Source: a phage
Reading direction: 5' to 3' (one strand)
Sequence record: PZ229304.1
DNA: 64,000 nt
This document shows positions 1 to 9,530 of the stretch, piece by piece. Within the stretch, counting starts at the first letter, position 1; each line of letters opens with the position of its first letter. Under the pieces are notes generated by a model, which was given only the letters and a program-made list of their open reading frames with translations, was not told the DNA's origin and did no database searches. The position numbers and the translations under genes were made by a program.

Positions 1-848
1 ACTGGGGTGTTAACAGCGGAAGATATGCGGGGCCACCAATTAACTTTACAATTAAGAATTTGGATATTCCAGAATCTTCAATTGAGATTGCAACGGCTGG
101 ATCAGATGCTTGGGAAAACTCTACAATTGTTAGTAATATCAATTGTAATGTTTTTAAATGGCGTGGGCTACCATCTAGCTCTACCTTTAATAATATTCGT
201 TGCCGTAGTATTGACTTTATTGGTCAACACGGAAGCGGAGAAGGAAGTGGTGGCGGTTTCTATACTCGCAGCCAATTCACGTATATGAAGTGGGTAGGAT
301 GTACAGCACTTAGCGGAGATGAAACAACAGTTTCTTTTGCTAAAATCTACACTGATCGTTGCGATCAGGTTGGAAATAACTTTGGTGTTCCAACTGCTGT
401 TGATGGTACAGGTCATCGTGGGCCAGTTTTAACTACTATTTCTGAACAATATTTTACAACTTATGATGAATTCCCAGGTGGGCGTGAATTCCCTACTGGA
501 ACAGTTATTCATTGTGCAAGCGGTAAAAAACATGTTGTTACAGTAGGTGGTGCTTTCTTTAGTGCCAACGAGAAAATAAAAGCAACTGTTACAGGTCAAA
601 CCTATCTACAGTCTAATGCTTTAAACTGGGCTAGTAATGGCTACGCTAAAGCAGCAGGTACTAAGATTGTTATTCCAGGTGCAGGTGCAAATGGCGGCGA
701 TCTTGTGACAACTATAGCACGTGCTACATATGTGACAAATAGTTTGTACACAATAGATATTGCAGATCCAATTGTAACACCTACAGCAGAGAATACACAA
801 ATTAAAGCTCTGAATCCTGTTACTTTTGTTACTGTCAACAATGCTTAA
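1..848 (+). CDS. Tail fibre/tailspike protein, C-terminal part (5' end lies outside the window)
   Basis: Frame of ORF 60..848 is open back to base 1 with no stop; Gly/Thr/Ser/Asn-rich composition typical of fibre proteins; followed by a hairpin terminator and then the collagen-like fibre gene. Confidence 0.45.
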   Translation, partial: WGVNSGRYAGPPINFTIKNLDIPESSIEIATAGSDAWENSTIVSNINCNVFKWRGLPSSSTFNNIRCRSIDFIGQHGSGEGSGGGFYTRSQFTYMKWVGCTALSGDETTVSFAKIYTDRCDQVGNNFGVPTAVDGTGHRGPVLTTISEQYFTTYDEFPGGREFPTGTVIHCASGKKHVVTVGGAFFSANEKIKATVTGQTYLQSNALNWASNGYAKAAGTKIVIPGAGANGGDLVTTIARATYVTNSLYTIDIADPIVTPTAENTQIKALNPVTFVTVNNA

Positions 849-889: not shown

Positions 890-2851
890 GTGATTTTAAC
901 ACGTCCAAATAGTGCCATTGCAGACATGGTAGAGTCTCGCTATAGAAAGCGTAGAAGTTTTGCAAGTGGTTTTACCTTAAGAGATGCTCGTGAAGCATTG
1001 CTCTTTGAAACTGACGGTAACTACTATCAGTGGAAAGGTTCTCTACCTAAAGTTGTACCTGCTAACTCTACTCCTACATCTACTGGAGGGATTTCAGATA
1101 CAGCTTGGAAAAATGTGGGTAATGCAGATGACATTGCTCAAATAGAATCAGAATTAGATGCTATTGAAGCTGAAATTGAAGATCTTAGAGAATCCATACC
1201 AGAAGCTGGTAAATCAGCTTACCAGATTGCCGTAGACAATGGTTTCCAAGGTACTGAGACACAGTGGTTGGCTTCTTTAAAAGGTGATCCAGGTGCTCCA
1301 TTAAAGCTACTAGGGACGCTATCTAATACCAACCAATTACCTACAACTGGAAACAATGCAGGGGATGCATGGATTGTAGGCGAGAATATGTATGCTTGGG
1401 ATGGTACTGCTTGGAGAAAAGTAAACTCACAGGGGCCAGAAGGTAAATCAGCTTATCAAGTTTGGCTTGCAGCAGGAAACCAAGGTACAGAACTAGACTA
1501 TCTTGCTGCGATTAAAGGTGATAAAGGGGAGCCTGGCCCAGAGGGGCCACAAGGTGTGCCAGGTAACAATGCTAATGGTTTTGATTACCAAGGTGCAGCT
1601 AATTCCGTTTCAGATCTTCCTTCTGCATCTCATGGAAACACATCTCAAGCATGGAGTGTTGGTACATATCTATACGTGTCAAACGGTGTAGAATGGATCA
1701 ATATGGGCGCTATAGTGGGGCCAAAAGGAGATAAAGGCGACAAAGGAGATAAGGGTAACACTGGTGATTCAGCTTATCAAGTTTGGTTAAATGCTGGTAA
1801 CGTTGGTACTATTGACGAATATATTGCCTCTCTGAAAGGAGAAAAAGGTGATAAGGGAGACAAGGGTGATCAAGGTGCGCAGGGTATACAAGGCTTGACG
1901 GGGCCAACTGGTGCAGGGTTGACCATTATTGACATTCTGACTAGCACTTCTGAACTGCCACAAACTGGGGAAGATGGTGATGGTTATCTGATCAATAGTG
2001 AACTTTGGGTCTGGTTGCAAGGAGCCACAGAGTGGACAAATGTTGGTCGTTTAGCTGGTACTCCAATCACTGCAAAAGGACACGTTGCGTCTGCAAGTGC
2101 GCTTCCTCCTACAGCCAATTACGGTGATGCTTATCTGACGGAAGATACAGGTCATCTTTACATTTACACCTATAATGAACAAACTCAAACTGCTGAATAT
2201 GTAGATATGGGTAGTTTGAAAGGTGATAAGGGTGAAAAAGGTGACGCTGGTACTAACGGTACAGACGGTGCAACTTGGATTGTTAAAACAACAGATCCAA
2301 TCTCTAGTGATGGTAAACAAGGTGATTATGCCTTTAATATCTCCACTGGCGAGGTGTTCTTAAAAACATCTGCAACTGTCTGGACTTCTCAAGGTACACT
2401 ACCTAGCATCACAGATGCACCTAGTGATGGTAAGACTTATGCTCGTAAAGATGGAGCATGGGAAGAACTCACTAGTTCTGTAGATGGTCAAGATATAGTT
2501 CCAACAAAAGTAACAACTAATTTTATAGAGGTTACAGCATATACCAACGATTCTGTTACAGGGGACTGGACACCTCCAGGAACACATAACATGAATGTGT
2601 TGAATCTTACTGGTAACTCTACTATAAAAGCATGGCCTGGTGTCGAAGATAGCACAAAACCTAAACCATTCTCTGCAATAGTTTATCTTATCCAAGATGC
2701 CACTGGAGGTCGTACTGTTACTTTAGATCCATCTTATAAAGTAATTGGTTCTAGTGATATTAATACAGATCCTAACGGAGTAACAATACTACAACTAACA
2801 TATTGTGGTGTTGGCAATTACGTGGATGCTATTGTTGCTAAACGCACATAA
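890..2851 (+). CDS. Tail fibre protein with collagen-like Gly-X-Y repeats
   Basis: 653-aa ORF, GTG start 10 nt after AAGGAG; runs such as GPKGDKGDKGDKGNTGDS and GEKGDKGDKGDQGAQGIQGLTGPTGAG; three copies of SAYQ(I/V)..AG(N)QGTE..(W/Y)LA(S)(L)KG and four LP.TG...W/Y repeats; N-terminal coiled coil (IESELDAIEAEIEDLRE). Confidence 0.7.
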   Translation: MILTRPNSAIADMVESRYRKRRSFASGFTLRDAREALLFETDGNYYQWKGSLPKVVPANSTPTSTGGISDTAWKNVGNADDIAQIESELDAIEAEIEDLRESIPEAGKSAYQIAVDNGFQGTETQWLASLKGDPGAPLKLLGTLSNTNQLPTTGNNAGDAWIVGENMYAWDGTAWRKVNSQGPEGKSAYQVWLAAGNQGTELDYLAAIKGDKGEPGPEGPQGVPGNNANGFDYQGAANSVSDLPSASHGNTSQAWSVGTYLYVSNGVEWINMGAIVGPKGDKGDKGDKGNTGDSAYQVWLNAGNVGTIDEYIASLKGEKGDKGDKGDQGAQGIQGLTGPTGAGLTIIDILTSTSELPQTGEDGDGYLINSELWVWLQGATEWTNVGRLAGTPITAKGHVASASALPPTANYGDAYLTEDTGHLYIYTYNEQTQTAEYVDMGSLKGDKGEKGDAGTNGTDGATWIVKTTDPISSDGKQGDYAFNISTGEVFLKTSATVWTSQGTLPSITDAPSDGKTYARKDGAWEELTSSVDGQDIVPTKVTTNFIEVTAYTNDSVTGDWTPPGTHNMNVLNLTGNSTIKAWPGVEDSTKPKPFSAIVYLIQDATGGRTVTLDPSYKVIGSSDINTDPNGVTILQLTYCGVGNYVDAIVAKRT

Positions 2852-2854
2852 TCA

Positions 2855-2879
2855 AAGCCCCTTCGGGGGCTTATTATTT
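2855..2879 (+). terminator. Rho-independent terminator-like hairpin (AAGCCCC-TTCG-GGGGCTT + T-rich)
   Basis: 7-bp stem, TTCG tetraloop, followed by TATTATTT; 4 nt after stop codon. Confidence 0.55.
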
Positions 2880-2890
2880 AAGGAGATTAA

Positions 2891-5710
2891 ATGTATCCTA
2901 TTCCTTTATTTATGTCAACAACATCAGCTTCAGTAGTAACAGCTACATCTATAACCACTTCCTCTATTGGTATTGCAATAGTTGGTAGTAAAAAGCAACT
3001 GACATACACAGTTTCACCGGAAGATGGTGCGTTATTTGATATAGATTTTTCATCTTCAGATAATACCAAAATGGTTATAGATAATAATGGTATGATGGAG
3101 TTTGTTGCTGAAGGTGGTTTTGATGCAATAATGACAGCTAAAAATAATTTAGGTGCTGTCTTAACTGATCAATCTGGTGGTTATGCTTCAGAATTAAGTG
3201 TGTACACTGAAAGTCTATCTGCTATGGATGTAGGCACTACTCAACAGTTGGTTGCTACAATCAGTCCAGAAGGTGCTAAAGACCTTCCAGATATGGTAAT
3301 TACGTACACCACAACAGATCCAGAAGTGGCTACTGTAAGCCCTACAGGATTAATAACTGCTCTTAAAGATGGTAATTGCCGTATAGGTTGTACTGCAACG
3401 TATCAAGGAACAGTTGTGGCCTCTGATAGTTCTTATTTAGGTGTTAATGCTATTCCTGTTATTTCTAATGTAACAGCCGTGGCAAACAGCTATGGAGACG
3501 TTCGTGTTGCTTGGGATGTAGCTGATCCGCTAGATGGTGATACTTATACTGTAGAAGTATTAGATTTAAGTAATAATAGTGTTCAGTGGACTACAACAAC
3601 CACGAATACTCATGCTTACTTTGATATCTCTGACTCTATTCCTCTTTATGGGTTTGCTCCAACATACCTTAAAATTAGCGTTAAGAGCACCAAAGCAGCA
3701 GCCGTTATCTTTAATAACTCAATAGCTACAGATGATTCATTCATTAAAGAAGTTATTGTCTTTGCTGGACAAGATAACGTAAATGCACACTTTACAGAAC
3801 TATCTGGTGCAAATAAAGCAGCAATGAGTAGCACAACAGCCCGTAATGCATATGCTACGCAACGTGGTTTAGCAAATGCTGAAGTTCTTCCGTTAAATAC
3901 AGCTTCTGGATCATCAGCAGCAGATAAATATGCTGACGATAAAGCTGGAACAGGAACACCAGACAACTACTGGTATGATCTGGATAACACAGCAGATGGG
4001 CCATGCTTAACTAACTTTATCACTAAAGTCACACCTTATGCAAGTAAGGTTAAAGCCATTATTTGGGGACAAGGTGAAAATGATGCTGTATCAGCATCTT
4101 CAACTGTTGCAGGTAGATACAGTAACACTACACGTTACCATGATGCTACGATAGCTATCTTTGATAAGATGCGTACAATAGTTCCTGCTTCTCAAGCAAA
4201 AATTGTTTGGCAGATCCTAGGACGTTCTTATTTATATGGTGTAGAAGTCAATGGTGTGGATTGGCAGAAATACAGAAATGTACAAAGAGCCATCTCTACG
4301 GCACGTGATGATGTTATCATTGGTTCTTGGGTAGATGGTGCTGAACGTTACAGTGGTTACGTTTATGAAGAAGGTATTGATGGTCGTATCCATTATATTT
4401 CTTCTGTATACCAGACAGCAGCTACAAAACTTGCTAAATCAGCAGCAGACGGTACAGACCTAACATCAACGTCACCTGTTTGGGTTGATATGGCTGTTCC
4501 AACTGGAGCAACAGCTACTTCCCAACCTAATCAAGATACAATTTTAGCATGGGATGCTCAAGGCTATAGTAAACACTACTTCCGTAATATTAACGTCTTA
4601 ACCGCATCTGTATTAACTGAACAAACGCTTAATACGAACAGTTATACGTTTACCTATGCAGATCAAGTAGCACAATATGGTTTTGCAGCAGGAACTACTA
4701 TATTTGATGTTGCATATTATGACGAAGCAAATGATGTGTTATCTCCTTTAGTACGTTTTAATGTTAACGTTACAGCAGGAACCGAAGAAGATAAACCTGT
4801 CGTGATGGACTATGATTTGACGCAAGAAACTCTCCCATCAGATGTTAAGGTTAATGGTGGGAACTCTTTTGCTCGTGCTTCTGGAGATAAACTTGTAGCC
4901 ACTAACACCTTGGTTGCTCCGTTGGAGTATGTTGGTACTACCCCTGTAGGTAGACGTGTAACAGCTAACACAGCTACACAAATTTTTGTCAACAACGCCT
5001 TAACAAGTGCAAGCCCGTGGGTAAAGACCAACTTAACTGTTGCAGCTTCATCTGATAACTCTCCGGCTGGAACTACTGCTAATGTATTCAAATTAACTCC
5101 GACTACAACCTCTGGTAGTCATATCTTAACTGCAACATATACTAACGCGTACAACATAAATGCCGGACGTAACTGGTCTGCCTCTGTTTTCTTGAAAGCG
5201 AACGGGATTACTAAGGCTAAACTAAGATTAAAAGCAGGAACTGAAGTTAATGAGGGTACTTTTGATTTAGCAGCAGGTACATTCACAGGAAGTGAAGCTA
5301 ATATTATATCTATGGGCAACGGTTGGTATCGTGCTATTCTGCATAAAACAGGGATAGCCAAACAGTCCTTCATAAGTTTTGAAATAATTGCCTTGGATGC
5401 AACTGGTGCAGAGATTTTCGCTGGAAATGGTACTAGTAACCTTGCAGTTTGGTTGCCACAGCTTGAAGGTGCTTCTACAGGAGAAACATCAAAAGCTGGA
5501 TCGCCTTATGTCTGCACATATCCTGGAAATTTAGGAGGAGTATCCTTCACTATACCAAGGAACGGACATACTGGTGTGGATGTTTACTATTCCAACGGAG
5601 ACGTTGTTCGTGACGTATTCTCTGGTACGGCATCTACTTGGACAATAAACTACTCCAGCTTGTACGATTGGGGATCAGTCTTTATTACAGGTTTGAAATA
5701 TTACGACTAA
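2891..5710 (+). CDS. Large tail fibre/tailspike protein with Ig-like (Big_2-type) repeats, FN3-like region and SGNH/SASA-type carbohydrate esterase-like region
   Basis: 939-aa ORF with AAGGAG RBS; Big_2-like segment (ATISPEGAKDLPDMVITYTTTDPEVATVSPTGLITALKDGNCRIGCTATYQG); AGQDNVN and WGQGENDA motifs resemble the GQSNM / QGEsD motifs of sialate-O-acetylesterase-type SGNH hydrolases (from memory of the family, not searched). Confidence 0.55.
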   Translation: MYPIPLFMSTTSASVVTATSITTSSIGIAIVGSKKQLTYTVSPEDGALFDIDFSSSDNTKMVIDNNGMMEFVAEGGFDAIMTAKNNLGAVLTDQSGGYASELSVYTESLSAMDVGTTQQLVATISPEGAKDLPDMVITYTTTDPEVATVSPTGLITALKDGNCRIGCTATYQGTVVASDSSYLGVNAIPVISNVTAVANSYGDVRVAWDVADPLDGDTYTVEVLDLSNNSVQWTTTTTNTHAYFDISDSIPLYGFAPTYLKISVKSTKAAAVIFNNSIATDDSFIKEVIVFAGQDNVNAHFTELSGANKAAMSSTTARNAYATQRGLANAEVLPLNTASGSSAADKYADDKAGTGTPDNYWYDLDNTADGPCLTNFITKVTPYASKVKAIIWGQGENDAVSASSTVAGRYSNTTRYHDATIAIFDKMRTIVPASQAKIVWQILGRSYLYGVEVNGVDWQKYRNVQRAISTARDDVIIGSWVDGAERYSGYVYEEGIDGRIHYISSVYQTAATKLAKSAADGTDLTSTSPVWVDMAVPTGATATSQPNQDTILAWDAQGYSKHYFRNINVLTASVLTEQTLNTNSYTFTYADQVAQYGFAAGTTIFDVAYYDEANDVLSPLVRFNVNVTAGTEEDKPVVMDYDLTQETLPSDVKVNGGNSFARASGDKLVATNTLVAPLEYVGTTPVGRRVTANTATQIFVNNALTSASPWVKTNLTVAASSDNSPAGTTANVFKLTPTTTSGSHILTATYTNAYNINAGRNWSASVFLKANGITKAKLRLKAGTEVNEGTFDLAAGTFTGSEANIISMGNGWYRAILHKTGIAKQSFISFEIIALDATGAEIFAGNGTSNLAVWLPQLEGASTGETSKAGSPYVCTYPGNLGGVSFTIPRNGHTGVDVYYSNGDVVRDVFSGTASTWTINYSSLYDWGSVFITGLKYYD

Positions 5711-5713
5711 TAA

Positions 5714-5742
5714 AAAAGGAGCCATTAGGCTCCTTTTCTTTT
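5714..5742. terminator. Bidirectional terminator hairpin between convergent genes (AAGGAGCC-ATTA-GGCTCCTT)
   Basis: 8-bp perfect stem flanked by A-run upstream and T-run downstream; sits between + gene ending 5710 and - gene ending 5746. Confidence 0.55.
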
Positions 5743-5745
5743 ATC

Positions 5746-6177
5746 TTAATCAGTGAAAATTACGCTTACATCTTCTTTAGAAAAGAGTTTATGATCTTCA
5801 CCTTTTGTCTCAAGAGTTTCATACAGGTTAAGAAGTTCTGAAACATCTTTCTCTACCAGTTTCTTCAATGTTGCAATTTTCTGTTTGCGATTCTTAATAC
5901 GTTCAGCTACAACCTTACGTTGGTATCCAGCAGTACGATAACCTGAGAAAGTTACACCAGTGAGACTTGCAGTTACAGGATCGTAATGACGTTCAATCTG
6001 AAATTTATTAAAAGGTACAGCGTCATCACGAATAATCTTCCCGCCATTACTTACTTGACGAAGACCAGTAACTTGTTCTAGTCGTGCCATAGAAATCTTT
6101 GGAGACAGACCAGAGTCCAAGTTCATACCATTGTTAATCAGTGCTTTCAGGGTGATTTTGCTGTTCAGTGTACTCAT
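5746..6177 (-). CDS. Hypothetical protein
   Basis: 143-aa ORF in the co-directional minus-strand array; overlaps the methyltransferase 3' end by 44 nt in another frame. Confidence 0.4.
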   Translation of the reverse strand: MSTLNSKITLKALINNGMNLDSGLSPKISMARLEQVTGLRQVSNGGKIIRDDAVPFNKFQIERHYDPVTASLTGVTFSGYRTAGYQRKVVAERIKNRKQKIATLKKLVEKDVSELLNLYETLETKGEDHKLFSKEDVSVIFTD

Positions 6178-7889: not shown

Positions 7890-8288
7890 TTACATTACTT
7901 TAACACAAAACTCTCGTAAAAGAGTAGCGTCAGTTTCTTCCAACAGGTATTTACCAAGACCAATACCAAATCCTATTTCACCACTTTCAAAATGGAGAAT
8001 TTGTATCTTTTCTCCACCAAGGTTGATTACTTTTGCTTTTCCAGGATTATCCAAAACATCTCGTATTGTATCCTGTAGTAGCATTAGTTCACGTTTTGTG
8101 ATAGTGGTTTCAGATATCTCTTTGTTTTCTACTCTCACTGTTAAACGATTGTATCCACCAAAGAGACATAGTATTTGAATAAAAAAGGTATTATCTTGAG
8201 GTTCAACATCTTTTTTAGTTAGCTCAAGACGATTAGTTTCTCTACTGTAGAACGTCTCGACTAAGATTTTAGAACGATTATCTGTCAT
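7890..8288 (-). CDS. Hypothetical protein
   Basis: 132-aa ORF in the minus-strand gene array. Confidence 0.4.
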   Translation of the reverse strand: MTDNRSKILVETFYSRETNRLELTKKDVEPQDNTFFIQILCLFGGYNRLTVRVENKEISETTITKRELMLLQDTIRDVLDNPGKAKVINLGGEKIQILHFESGEIGFGIGLGKYLLEETDATLLREFCVKVM

Positions 8289-8331
8289 TCAAGTCCTCAT
8301 AATAACACATAATTATAATGTTTGTCAACAC

Positions 8332-8946
8332 TTAAATCTTAAATTCTTCGTTGTTAAATGAATCCAGTGTACGTACTTCTGGTTCTTTGGGAATGAAAAC
8401 GTCTTTTACAAAGCGGAACATAGGGAAACGTTCTGCCATTTTACGGACGTGTGCTTCTTTACCTGTGTATCGGTGATTAATAGTACAAATATTAGTTTTC
8501 AGTGCAAATTCAAAATCTGGATGATATACATAATTTTGACCATCCCAGTAACACAAGCAAATAGCTACATCAAAGTTCCATACGATTTCACTGCGTACAC
8601 CTTCTTCCATGATCATAAAGTTAAACTTAAGATCTTTATAGTATGCTTCAAATACCCATTTCAAATGTGGTAGTTCGGCATAAGTGTGTTCTGTTTGCTT
8701 AGTAAGTTGTTTAACATTACGTGCACCAACACCCAACATCAAAAACTTCTCTACTAGCACGAGTGTATTGTGGTTAGGCATACGCAAGTAAATGTCAATG
8801 TCTTGTGCAGGTTTCTCTAATCGCCAATCACGTACAGCGCCGCCAGCTACAATTGCAAACGGATCTACCAGTTGGCACATACGTAATACTTCTAAAGCTC
8901 GTACTTTTTGATCTTCAATATTCATATTTTCTCCTATCGTGTCCAC
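8332..8946 (-). CDS. Nucleotidyltransferase-like protein (poly(A) polymerase / CCA-adding enzyme head-domain-like)
   Basis: Motif IVAGGAVRDW.....DIDIY resembles the GGxVRD...DxD signature of tRNA nucleotidyltransferase/PAP head domains; only 204 aa so likely a minimal enzyme. Confidence 0.45.
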   Translation of the reverse strand: MDTIGENMNIEDQKVRALEVLRMCQLVDPFAIVAGGAVRDWRLEKPAQDIDIYLRMPNHNTLVLVEKFLMLGVGARNVKQLTKQTEHTYAELPHLKWVFEAYYKDLKFNFMIMEEGVRSEIVWNFDVAICLCYWDGQNYVYHPDFEFALKTNICTINHRYTGKEAHVRKMAERFPMFRFVKDVFIPKEPEVRTLDSFNNEEFKI

Positions 8947-9530
8947 TCTTTGTGTTGTTCTACATGCTCAAGCATTTCATTATATAGTGCTTTAAGATGT
9001 GGAACAACTCTTTCATCTTCAGTCTCAAAGAATTTTGTAAGCTGTTCTGCCTTAGCCTTCAACCAACAAAGATGCGCTTCAATTTCAGTATTAAAACGTC
9101 CCAGTGTTATAACACGTCCATCACGTTGAATATGGGCTTTATACTTTTTACGATCTTTTTCGTAACTACATCCTACCATAGTCCCATGAGATCTTTTACT
9201 TACTCTATAAGCTAAGAACTTGTTAAGATCTCCTGTTACTAAAAGACAGGTATCGGGAGAGTAAACTCTCCCTCCTATAATATCTTTATCAAGTTCTAAG
9301 TTTTCCCAGTTATCCCAAGTTTGCAACCAAGAGTAGAAATTGGAGAACAGTTTCCATTCTTCACAAACCGTCACCCCATTATAACAAGGATCACGTTCTT
9401 GTTGACAAGGGGAGTAACACCTCCCCAACATAGCCATCCATTTCATATAATGCGGCGTTAGTTTCTTACTACCAGGTAGCGTACTCTCGCCTTCCAAATC
9501 ATTAATACCTTCACCATATACGGTAAGCAT
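8934..9530 (-). CDS. Putative DNA-binding protein with AP2-like C-terminal region (homing-endonuclease-associated type)
   Basis: 198 aa; Cys/Trp-rich N-terminal half (W..ML.RC...C..ERDPCYNGVTVCEEW) and C-terminal YEKDRKKYKAHIQRDGRVITLGRFNTEIEA resembling AP2-type DNA-binding domains; weak call. Confidence 0.3.
   Translation of the reverse strand: MLTVYGEGINDLEGESTLPGSKKLTPHYMKWMAMLGRCYSPCQQERDPCYNGVTVCEEWKLFSNFYSWLQTWDNWENLELDKDIIGGRVYSPDTCLLVTGDLNKFLAYRVSKRSHGTMVGCSYEKDRKKYKAHIQRDGRVITLGRFNTEIEAHLCWLKAKAEQLTKFFETEDERVVPHLKALYNEMLEHVEQHKEWTR

What the first reader, a model, noticed from the sequence alone, without database searches (positions are those of the whole stretch)
2891..5710. Tail fibre carrying an SGNH/SASA-type esterase-like region and Ig-like repeats
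The 939-aa fibre protein has Big_2-like Ig domains at the N-terminus and an internal region with AGQDNVN and WGQGENDA motifs that resemble the GQSNM and QGEsD motifs of sialate-O-acetylesterase-type SGNH hydrolases. This suggests an enzymatically active receptor-binding protein that deacetylates a surface polysaccharide (O-antigen or capsule), which would define host range.
Basis: partly seen in the sequence, partly recalled or inferred. Interest (0 to 1): 0.45.

Follow-up and report, generated by a model that had tools for sequence, protein, structure and literature searches.

The report
Phage fibre with a Ser-less esterase domain
This phi92-like coliphage tail protein does contain a sialate-O-acetylesterase-type (SASA/SGNH) domain, but the catalytic serine is replaced by aspartate, so it is more likely a sugar-binding module than a working deacetylase, and the gene is already known and annotated in many sequenced phages.

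Summary

The "active deacetylase" reading is weak. The family consensus is GQSN / WxQGExD / [DG]xxH. At the nucleophile position 70 of 90 family domains have Ser; this protein has Asp295 (codon GAT). Only the Justusliebigvirus and Avunavirus copies carry Asp, and the Avunavirus copies have also lost the block II Gly and sometimes the His.

The window is a Justusliebigvirus (phi92-like), 98.7% identical to phage Antha. Two GenBank records already call this gene "tail carbohydrate esterase". The domain is homologous to the receptor-binding "sheath" protein gp65 of N4. It is nearly invariant among relatives, disrupted in phi92 itself, and absent from a syntenic relative, so it is unlikely to set host range; the C-terminal part varies instead.

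Best reading: a modular accessory tail fibre whose degenerate esterase domain binds a conserved acetylated glycan without cleaving it. This is inferred, not shown. It is a minor variant of a known kind.

The parts
2891..5710 (+). Gene for the 939-aa tail/fibre protein. It is the ortholog of the split phi92 gp152/gp153 and is annotated elsewhere as 'tail protein', 'lateral tail fiber protein', 'tail carbohydrate esterase' or 'non-contractile tail sheath'.
   Evidence: PHROG 32204/11922 'tail protein', E 0 and 3e-227
2855..2885 (+). Intergenic GC-rich hairpin (2855-2872, terminator-like, with a weak T tail) followed by the AAGGAG ribosome-binding site (2880-2885), 5 nt before the ATG.
2891..2974 (+). 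N-terminal ~28 aa (MYPIPLFMSTTSASVVTATSITTSSIGI...). It is conserved in the module-less relative P0082; I infer it is the attachment segment.
   Evidence: alignment; function is inference only
2975..3460 (+). Two Big_2 Ig-like domains (aa ~29-190).
   Evidence: Pfam PF02368, E 2.6e-14, 2 stretches; PDB 6n1a match
3461..3706 (+). First FN3/Ig-like beta domain (aa 191-272), of the type that flanks the SASA-like domains in N4 gp65. It is deleted in phi92.
   Evidence: BLASTP against N4 gp65 aa 619-700; phi92 comparison
3707..4525 (+). SASA-type SGNH-fold domain (aa 273-545) with a degenerate catalytic centre.
3764..3784 (+). Block I, AGQDNVN. Asp295 (GAT, nt 3773-3775) occupies the nucleophile-Ser position of the family consensus GQSN, at the junction of strand beta1 and helix alpha1.
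3902..3928 (+). Block II region, ASGSSAADK (family consensus GGSAADK). The Gly is retained here and lost in the Avunavirus copies.
4064..4087 (+). Block III, WGQGENDA (family consensus WxQGExDA; SASA QGExD). Intact.
4379..4396 (+). Block V, DGRIHY. His501 (nt 4391-4393) is retained. Gly498 sits where classical members have the triad Asp, as in 20 Ser/His-bearing family members.
4526..4774 (+). Second FN3/Ig-like domain (aa 546-628), homologous to the four C-terminal repeats of N4 gp65. It is the most divergent part relative to phi92 (74% nt identity).
4775..5707 (+). C-terminal all-beta region (aa 629-939) containing a 'GTA head spike fibre'-type domain (aa 694-863, nt 4970-5479). It is absent from the phi92 and Avunavirus orthologs, its last ~90-120 aa vary among relatives, and it is the likely distal binding tip.
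   Evidence: NCBIfam NF048003, E 3.8e-18; the structure model is unreliable (pLDDT 49.7)
5714..5747 (.). Terminator: 10-bp stem AAAAGGAGCC/GGCTCCTTTT plus a T run, lying between this gene and the convergent minus-strand genes.
   Evidence: 'terminator' features are annotated at this spot in phages Paula and PATM

Best explanation
The gene encodes a modular accessory tail fibre ('whisker') of a phi92-like myovirus (Justusliebigvirus). From N- to C-terminus it consists of a short anchor, two Big_2 Ig-like domains, an FN3-like domain, a SASA-type SGNH-fold domain, a second FN3-like domain, and a C-terminal beta-rich lectin-like domain. The FN3-SASA-FN3 cassette shares ancestry with the receptor-binding 'non-contractile sheath' protein gp65 of podovirus N4.

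The SASA-like domain keeps the fold and most pocket residues (Gly293, Asn296, block II Gly, Trp392-x-Gln-Gly-Glu-x-Asp398, His501). It has lost the nucleophilic serine, which is replaced by Asp295. I therefore infer that it no longer hydrolyses acetyl esters and instead acts as a non-catalytic binding module for a conserved, probably acetylated, surface glycan. It would add reversible avidity to the phage's multivalent adsorption apparatus. Strain-to-strain specificity would sit in the variable C-terminal domain and in the phage's other fibres and spikes.

Shown: the gene, domain order, fold, homology, residue substitutions, conservation pattern and modular presence/absence. Inferred: loss of catalysis, glycan binding and the role in adsorption.

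For: Loss of the nucleophile. An exhaustive HMMER search found 78 representative homologs. Across 90 aligned domains the position is Ser in 70 and Asp in 5, and all five Asp cases are Justusliebigvirus or Avunavirus. The codon GAT is two substitutions away from any Ser codon. It is conserved in phi92 and in all 14 Avunavirus-cluster sequences.

Further decay in the Asp clade. The Avunavirus copies have lost the block II Gly and Gln394, and 2 of 14 have His501 replaced by Gln. That pattern is expected once catalysis is gone.

Still under constraint. dN/dS against phi92 is 0.16 over aa 336-545, with no non-synonymous change in aa 273-334. 11 of 13 pocket or motif residues are shared with Avunavirus at 49% overall identity.

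Binding role of the homologous region. In phage phiAxp-3, fragment 795-1195 of its gp65 homolog is reported as sufficient for receptor binding (PMC5862860). That fragment contains blocks III-V of the equivalent domain and the FN3 repeats but not block I (coordinates). N4 gp65 is the N4 receptor-binding protein (PMC13434306), and its equivalent domain B has also lost both Ser (to Gln) and His (to Tyr).

Not the host-range determinant. The domain is 98-100% identical among the closest phages, broken in phi92 and absent from syntenic P0082. The C-terminus varies.
Against: No biochemical or binding data exist for this protein, and I could not inspect the model's coordinates to measure the Asp295-His501 geometry. 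His501 and blocks II and III are fully retained in this lineage, which is also what a still-active enzyme would show. Strict conservation of Asp, rather than drift to varied residues, could mean that Asp has a chemical role. The phiAxp-3 fragment lacks part of the SGNH fold, so its binding may come from the FN3 repeats instead. The ligand is unknown. The phi92 frameshifts may be sequencing errors. Virion incorporation is assumed from synteny and PHROG annotation, not from proteomics seen here.
Confidence: 0.55

Rival explanations
1. One reading: the domain is a working carbohydrate O-acetylesterase. It strips acetyl groups from O-antigen, capsule or another glycan and so drives the virion towards the cell surface, as the G7C gp63.1 and Possum gp66 fibres do. 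Here it would use Asp295/His501 or another residue in place of the classical Ser.
For: The SASA/SGNH fold is intact, and blocks II, III and the block V His are conserved. Asp295 is strictly conserved across two phage genera. The domain is under purifying selection. SGNH deacetylase fibres are proven in other phages: Possum gp66 by experiment, and G7C gp63.1 as cited in that paper (PMC9569702). Two GenBank records annotate the gene 'tail carbohydrate esterase'.
Against: The nucleophilic Ser is absent, whereas 70 of 90 homologous domains and all aligned SASA structures have it. To my own knowledge no SGNH hydrolase with an Asp nucleophile has been described. Avunavirus copies with the same Asp have lost the block II Gly, and some have lost the His, which is hard to reconcile with a maintained catalytic centre. 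The GenBank annotations are automated fold-based labels, not experiments.
Confidence: 0.15
2. The domain is only a structural spacer, an evolutionary relic with no ligand. It survives because it is part of a fibre scaffold, and all receptor contact is made by the C-terminal domain.
For: The cassette is dispensable. A syntenic ortholog (P0082) joins the Big_2 domains directly to the C-terminal domain, and phi92 carries a deleted and frameshifted copy. The catalytic residues are decaying in Avunavirus.
Against: Motif and pocket residues, including Asp295, are retained between genera at 49% overall identity, and dN/dS is low. In the Avunavirus and phi92-type orthologs the protein ends right after the SASA-FN3 cassette with no C-terminal domain, so there the cassette is the distal, exposed end. 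The homologous region of phiAxp-3 ORF69 binds receptor (PMC5862860).
Confidence: 0.2
3. It is the fibre that targets NGR (the 'N4 glycan receptor') in phi92-like phages. It would bind or modify the ManNAc-containing NfrB/NfrA-dependent exopolysaccharide through the domain it shares with N4 gp65.
For: Justusliebigvirus phages depend on nfrB/wecB (NGR), as N4 does (PMC8669472, PMC11990801). This protein shares two module types with N4 gp65.
Against: The module linked to NGR by comparative genomics is a different one: the GMSHY motif, found in phi92 gp142 and at N4 gp65 aa 410 (bioRxiv 10.64898/2026.04.02.716166). This protein lacks GMSHY, and gp142 lacks the SASA-like domain. NGR-dependent Vequintavirus phages gave no tblastn hit to this domain. 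phi92-type copies are disrupted.
Confidence: 0.1

Closest known systems
Phage N4 gp65, the 'non-contractile tail sheath' and receptor-binding protein (PDB 9LC0, 9YF4, 9YF5, 9YFT), and its homologs in Achromobacter/Pseudomonas N4-like phages and Casjensviridae
   Different: N4 gp65 is a 1382-aa, 10-domain sheath subunit of a podovirus that pairs with gp64. It carries two SASA-like domains and the GMSHY-containing module. The window protein is a 939-aa myovirus fibre with one SASA-like domain, Big_2 domains, a different C-terminus, no GMSHY and no detectable gp64-like partner. Sequence identity is only 22-30%.
SASA family (Pfam PF03629): E. coli NanS (3PT5), Arabidopsis At4g34215 (2APJ), the Clostridium CE6-like esterase (1ZMB) and mammalian SIAE
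   Different: The nucleophile Ser is replaced by Asp and the triad Asp by Gly. The single-sequence Pfam score is below the gathering threshold. The domain is embedded in a virion fibre rather than being a free enzyme.
Phage SGNH deacetylase fibres and spikes: G7C gp63.1, Pectobacterium phage Possum gp66, and the Moo19/B2 tailspikes
   Same: These are SGNH-fold domains in receptor-binding proteins that act on acetylated surface polysaccharides (PMC9569702; the Moo19/B2 paper is cited within PMC13434306).
   Different: Those proteins are experimentally active esterases. From my own knowledge they have a classical Ser-His-Asp centre and form trimeric spikes or fibres of a different SGNH subfamily. 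The window protein lacks the Ser and belongs to the SASA/N4-gp65 lineage.
CE2 carbohydrate esterases whose active site doubles as a non-catalytic carbohydrate-binding site (for example PDB 2W9X, 2WAO)
   Same: They set a precedent for an SGNH active-site cleft serving as a glycan-binding site. They appear among the fold matches.
   Different: There is no close sequence relationship, and these are cellular plant-cell-wall enzymes. The comparison is an analogy of mechanism only.

Membership tests
SGNH hydrolase superfamily (fold) | Three-layer alpha/beta/alpha flavodoxin-like fold with five parallel strands | tested here: met
SGNH hydrolase superfamily (catalysis) | Block I nucleophilic Ser at the beta1/alpha1 junction | tested here: not met
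   Asp295 (GAT) occupies the column that holds Ser in 70 of 90 family domains and in 2apj and 1zmb.
SGNH hydrolase superfamily (catalysis) | Block II Gly and the block III oxyanion/acid motif | tested here: met
   ASGSSAADK retains the Gly. WGQGENDA matches the consensus WxQGExDA.
SGNH hydrolase superfamily (catalysis) | Block V DxxH (catalytic His and Asp) | tested here: inconclusive
   His501 is present. The Asp position holds Gly498, with Asp497 one residue earlier. 20 family domains that have Ser and His also have Gly here, so a Ser-His dyad may be normal for this subfamily.
Pfam SASA (PF03629) | Score at or above the gathering threshold (24.8 bits) | tested here: not met
   15.2 bits for the whole protein and 16.8 bits for the domain. 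However, 28 of 36 homologs match (best E 2.9e-14), and the family profile hits 2apj and 1zmb. The domain is therefore a divergent relative.
N4 gp65-like receptor-binding 'sheath' proteins | Homologous SASA-like domain plus flanking FN3-like repeats | tested here: met
   tblastn E 1e-4 to 1e-24 against N4-like phages. BLASTP against N4 gp65 gives E 4e-13 and 7e-13 over both domains. Profile E 2e-191 and 8e-59.
N4 gp65-like receptor-binding 'sheath' proteins | Sheath architecture: pairing with a gp64-like subunit, and the GMSHY/NGR-associated module | tested here: not met
   The neighbouring 653-aa protein shows no similarity to N4 gp64. There is no GMSHY motif. The host phage is a myovirus with a contractile tail (taxonomy).
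Enzymatically active phage deacetylase tailspikes (G7C gp63.1 type) | Demonstrated esterase activity on host polysaccharide | not testable with these tools
   This needs biochemistry. The sequence argues against activity because the Ser is missing.
Big_2 Ig-like domain proteins | PF02368 match above threshold | tested here: met
   53.4 bits against a cut-off of 22.8, in two stretches.

The most novel reading that the evidence does not exclude
The strictly conserved Asp295-His501 pair in an otherwise intact SASA pocket could be a working catalytic centre of a new type within the SGNH fold. Examples would be an Asp-nucleophile or general-base esterase, or an N-deacetylase or transferase acting on a conserved enterobacterial glycan such as the ManNAc-based NGR polymer, colanic acid or ECA. 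That would give phi92-like phages a previously unrecognised glycan-modifying activity.
Probability: 0.08. Interest if true: 0.7.

Novelty: new variant of a known kind. Interest (0 to 1): 0.3.

Why it matters
Phi92-like phages are studied for their very broad host range and their "Swiss-army-knife" set of fibres and spikes. Which gene product does what is still largely unassigned.

This analysis makes four points. First, the gene annotated as "carbohydrate esterase", "lateral tail fibre" or "non-contractile sheath" is one N4-gp65-derived cassette. Second, in E. coli myoviruses that cassette has lost the esterase nucleophile, so a deacetylase annotation should not be propagated without testing. 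Third, it is distinct from the gp142-type module currently linked to the NGR receptor. Fourth, it is a swappable module, which matters for fibre engineering.

The biology is otherwise ordinary. SGNH domains in phage receptor-binding proteins, and catalytically dead enzyme folds reused for binding, are both well known.

Tried and rejected
1. Two word-indexed homolog searches, with the central region and with alignment A1, returned only 2-3 proteins and were useless for building an alignment. The exhaustive HMMER search supplied the family instead.

2. A single-sequence search of PDB sequences found only a Big_2 match. N4 gp65 and the SASA structures appeared only with profiles.

3. I tested whether the upstream 653-aa collagen-like fibre is a counterpart of N4 gp64. 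There is no similarity.

4. I tested whether this protein is the "glycan deacetylase" NGR fibre described in the BASEL and bioRxiv papers. It is not. That fibre is the phi92 gp142 type with a GMSHY motif; gp142 has no SASA-like domain and this protein has no GMSHY.

5. The structure prediction for the C-terminal 311 aa, made from a 4-sequence alignment, failed (pLDDT 49.7). No fold search was run on it, and the only evidence for that region is the NCBIfam GTA_spike_fiber match.

6. The original phi92 paper (PMC3457257) is not held in the library, so what its authors said about gp152/gp153 comes only from the GenBank notes.

7. I could not read the model's coordinates, so Asp295-His501 distances were not measured.
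Full report
**1. What is in the sequence**

The ORF at 2891-5710 (+) is real. It starts with ATG, is 939 codons long and ends in a stop. An AAGGAG ribosome-binding site at 2880-2885 precedes it. A 10-bp GC-rich hairpin with a T run follows it at 5714-5737, between this gene and the convergent minus-strand genes.

Pfam finds two Big_2 Ig-like domains in aa ~29-190 (E 2.6e-14). It gives only a sub-threshold SASA match (PF03629, E 0.017, 15.2 bits against a cut-off of 24.8). NCBIfam finds a "GTA head spike fibre" type domain at aa 694-863 (E 3.8e-18).

**2. Where the window comes from, and how the gene is already labelled**

The gene is 98.7% identical to that of Escherichia phage Antha and 97.6-98.4% identical to about 18 other listed records of genus Justusliebigvirus (phi92-like, Stephanstirmvirinae). 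It follows the colanic-acid-degrading tailspike gene and a 653-aa collagen-like fibre gene.

GenBank labels for it include "tail protein", "lateral tail fiber protein" (PaulScherrer), "non-contractile tail sheath" (KKE7M) and, in phages ALITA and KMB37, "tail carbohydrate esterase". The esterase-like nature of this gene is therefore already recorded in public annotation.

**3. The central domain is a SASA-type SGNH fold, related to N4 gp65**

tblastn of aa 271-624 against phage genomes finds three groups of hits. The Justusliebigvirus orthologs are above 90% identical. The Avunavirus orthologs are 49% identical. At 22-31% identity it finds the "tail sheath and receptor binding protein" of N4 (gp65) and of Achromobacter, Pseudomonas and Delftia N4-like phages and Casjensviridae (E 1e-4 to 1e-24).

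An exhaustive HMMER scan of 1.84 billion representative proteins finds only 78 relatives. The named ones are prophage "non-contractile tail sheath proteins" of Xanthobacter and Bradyrhizobium.

A profile of 36 of these domains (alignment A2) hits N4 gp65 (PDB 9lc0_I, E 8e-59). It then hits the SASA-family structures 2apj (E 3.5e-8) and 1zmb (E 7.4e-7), GDSL enzymes and, weakly, NanS. Blocks I, III and V are aligned in these matches. 28 of the 36 members match Pfam SASA, best E 2.9e-14.

**4. The catalytic centre is degenerate**

Across 90 aligned family domains the consensus has three blocks. Block I is F-[AG]-G-Q-S-N-A-x-G-H-F. Block III is W-x-Q-G-E-x-D-A. Block V is [DG]-x-[IV]-H-[YF].

At the nucleophile column 70 domains have Ser. 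Five have Asp, and all five are Justusliebigvirus or Avunavirus sequences. The nearest other relatives, at 38-50% identity, have GQSN; one has GQAN.

In the model Asp295 lies exactly at the end of strand beta1 (aa 287-293) and the start of helix alpha1 (aa 295-301). This is the SGNH nucleophile elbow. The codon is GAT, which is two substitutions from any Ser codon. The same residue is present in phi92 and in all 14 Avunavirus-cluster sequences.

His501, the block II Gly and block III are retained. Gly498 replaces the classical triad Asp, but 20 Ser/His-bearing relatives share that feature.

The Avunavirus copies carry the same Asp and have lost more: the block II Gly, Gln394 and, in 2 of 14, the His. 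This is the pattern expected once catalysis has been lost.

Equivalent decay is seen in N4 gp65 domain B, where Ser is replaced by Gln and His by Tyr. The homologs in Achromobacter and Pseudomonas N4-like phages keep both Ser and His. Sellner et al. note that in Achromobacter the nfrA/nfrB/wecB cluster includes O-acetyltransferase homologs (PMC8669472). It is my inference that esterase activity is kept where the target glycan is O-acetylated and lost in the E. coli phages.

**5. The domain is still constrained, but it is a dispensable and swappable module**

Against phi92, dN/dS is 0.16 over aa 336-545, and there are no amino-acid changes in aa 273-334. Of 13 motif or pocket residues, 11 are shared with Avunavirus, at 49% overall identity.

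In the phi92 record the gene is broken. The first FN3-like domain is deleted, there are two frame changes (giving gp152 and gp153), and there is no C-terminal domain.

In a related phage contig the syntenic gene (P0082, 496 aa) joins the anchor and Big_2 domains directly to an 82%-identical C-terminal domain, with no SASA cassette. The Avunavirus orthologs (about 647 aa) end right after the second FN3-like domain.

Among Justusliebigvirus genomes the last ~90-120 aa are replaced or highly diverged in several phages. The second FN3-like domain is the most divergent segment relative to phi92 (74% nt identity).

So variation between strains lies outside the SASA-like domain, and the claim that this domain defines host range is not supported.

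**6. Relation to the NGR story**

Justusliebigvirus phages, Vequintavirinae and N4 all depend on the NfrA/NfrB/WecB-dependent glycan NGR (PMC8669472, PMC11990801). The literature speaks of "homologous glycan deacetylase" fibres (PMC8594841).

A 2026 preprint specifies that module as the one exemplified by phi92 gp142, with the motif GMSHY (bioRxiv 10.64898/2026.04.02.716166). I checked three things. GMSHY is at aa 410 of N4 gp65 and aa 338 of phi92 gp142. It is absent from the window protein. gp142 has no SASA-like domain.

N4 gp65 is therefore a mosaic whose modules are split between two different fibre proteins in phi92-like phages. The window protein is not the one currently linked to NGR. 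Vequintavirus genomes gave no hit to this domain. The ligand of the window protein is unknown. Candidate conserved acetylated glycans are colanic acid, ECA and NGR; this is inference.

**7. Mechanism proposed**

The protein is an accessory fibre built as beads on a string. The SASA-derived pocket, now lacking its nucleophile, would bind an acetylated sugar without turning it over. The C-terminal lectin-like domain would provide a second, more variable contact.

Three lines support a binding role for the homologous region. [quoted passage not shown] In phiAxp-3, residues 795-1195 of ORF69 suffice for receptor binding (PMC5862860); that fragment contains blocks III-V of the equivalent domain plus FN3 repeats but not block I (coordinates). 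CE2 esterases give a precedent for an SGNH active-site cleft used for non-catalytic carbohydrate binding (PDB 2w9x title).

I put this reading at about 0.55. The rivals are a still-active unusual esterase (0.15), a ligand-less structural relic (0.2) and an NGR-specific role (0.1).

**8. Verdict**

The gene is known, widely sequenced and in places already annotated as an esterase. What is new here is modest:
- the nucleophile Ser is replaced by Asp, and the catalytic centre shows clade-specific decay;
- the protein is clearly separated from the gp142-type NGR module;
- the module is present or absent in different orthologs.

I rate it a new variant of a known kind, with interest 0.3.

Noticed in passing
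Locus L002 (phage N4, NC_008720): gp65 aa 427-602 and gp64 aa 15-77: N4 gp65 has a second, N-terminal SASA-like domain (domain A) with GESQ and WGQGDQDA that stops before block V. The family profile matches the N-terminus of the partner protein gp64 (aa 15-77, including 'GQIHF') over exactly the missing C-terminal third of the fold (E 0.0024 against PDB; 19 bits locally). The gp65-gp64 heterodimer may therefore rebuild one SGNH domain from two polypeptides, with Ser on gp65 and His on gp64.
   Followed up: partly
Locus L010 (phage phi92, FR775895.2), locus coordinates 3408-5070: In the type phage phi92 the ortholog is annotated as two genes, gp152 and gp153. Compared with the window it has an in-gene deletion of aa 199-272 and two frame changes, and it lacks the C-terminal 300-aa domain. 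This is either a real pseudogene or old sequencing errors.
   Followed up: partly
Locus L011 (Logan SRR30535871 contig), 8001-9491: A related phage contig carries, at the syntenic position after the colanidase and the 674-aa fibre, a 496-aa protein made of the same anchor, the Big_2 domains and the C-terminal domain (82% identity), but with no FN3-SASA-FN3 cassette. This is a clean example of module loss or gain within a fibre gene.
   Followed up: partly
window 2855-2872: A GC-rich hairpin (AAGCCCCTTCGGGGGCTT) with a short T-rich tail lies between the upstream 653-aa fibre gene and this gene. It could be a partial terminator that lowers expression of the 939-aa protein relative to the fibre before it.
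   Followed up: no
window 890-2851 (+): The upstream 653-aa protein has collagen-like GDKGDKG repeats, a tailspike/T7-fibre-type N-terminal adaptor and a conserved C-terminal fibre domain (PHROG 15437, E 0). It is the phi92 gp151 ortholog and may be the structure to which the 939-aa protein attaches.
   Followed up: no
Phage database hits H42, H43, H56 (MG065639, MG065689, MG065645): Three ~146-kb records labelled 'Campylobacter phage' (A150, A110a, A145; host C. jejuni) carry this gene region at 92-93% protein identity to the E. coli Justusliebigvirus version. This suggests mislabelled or contaminating coliphage genomes in that data set.
   Followed up: no
window 60-848 (+): The window begins inside the colanic-acid-degrading tailspike gene (phi92 gp150 ortholog; PHROG 6117, E 2e-103). 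The rest of the fibre and spike locus, including the gp142-type NGR fibre, lies upstream of the window.
   Followed up: no
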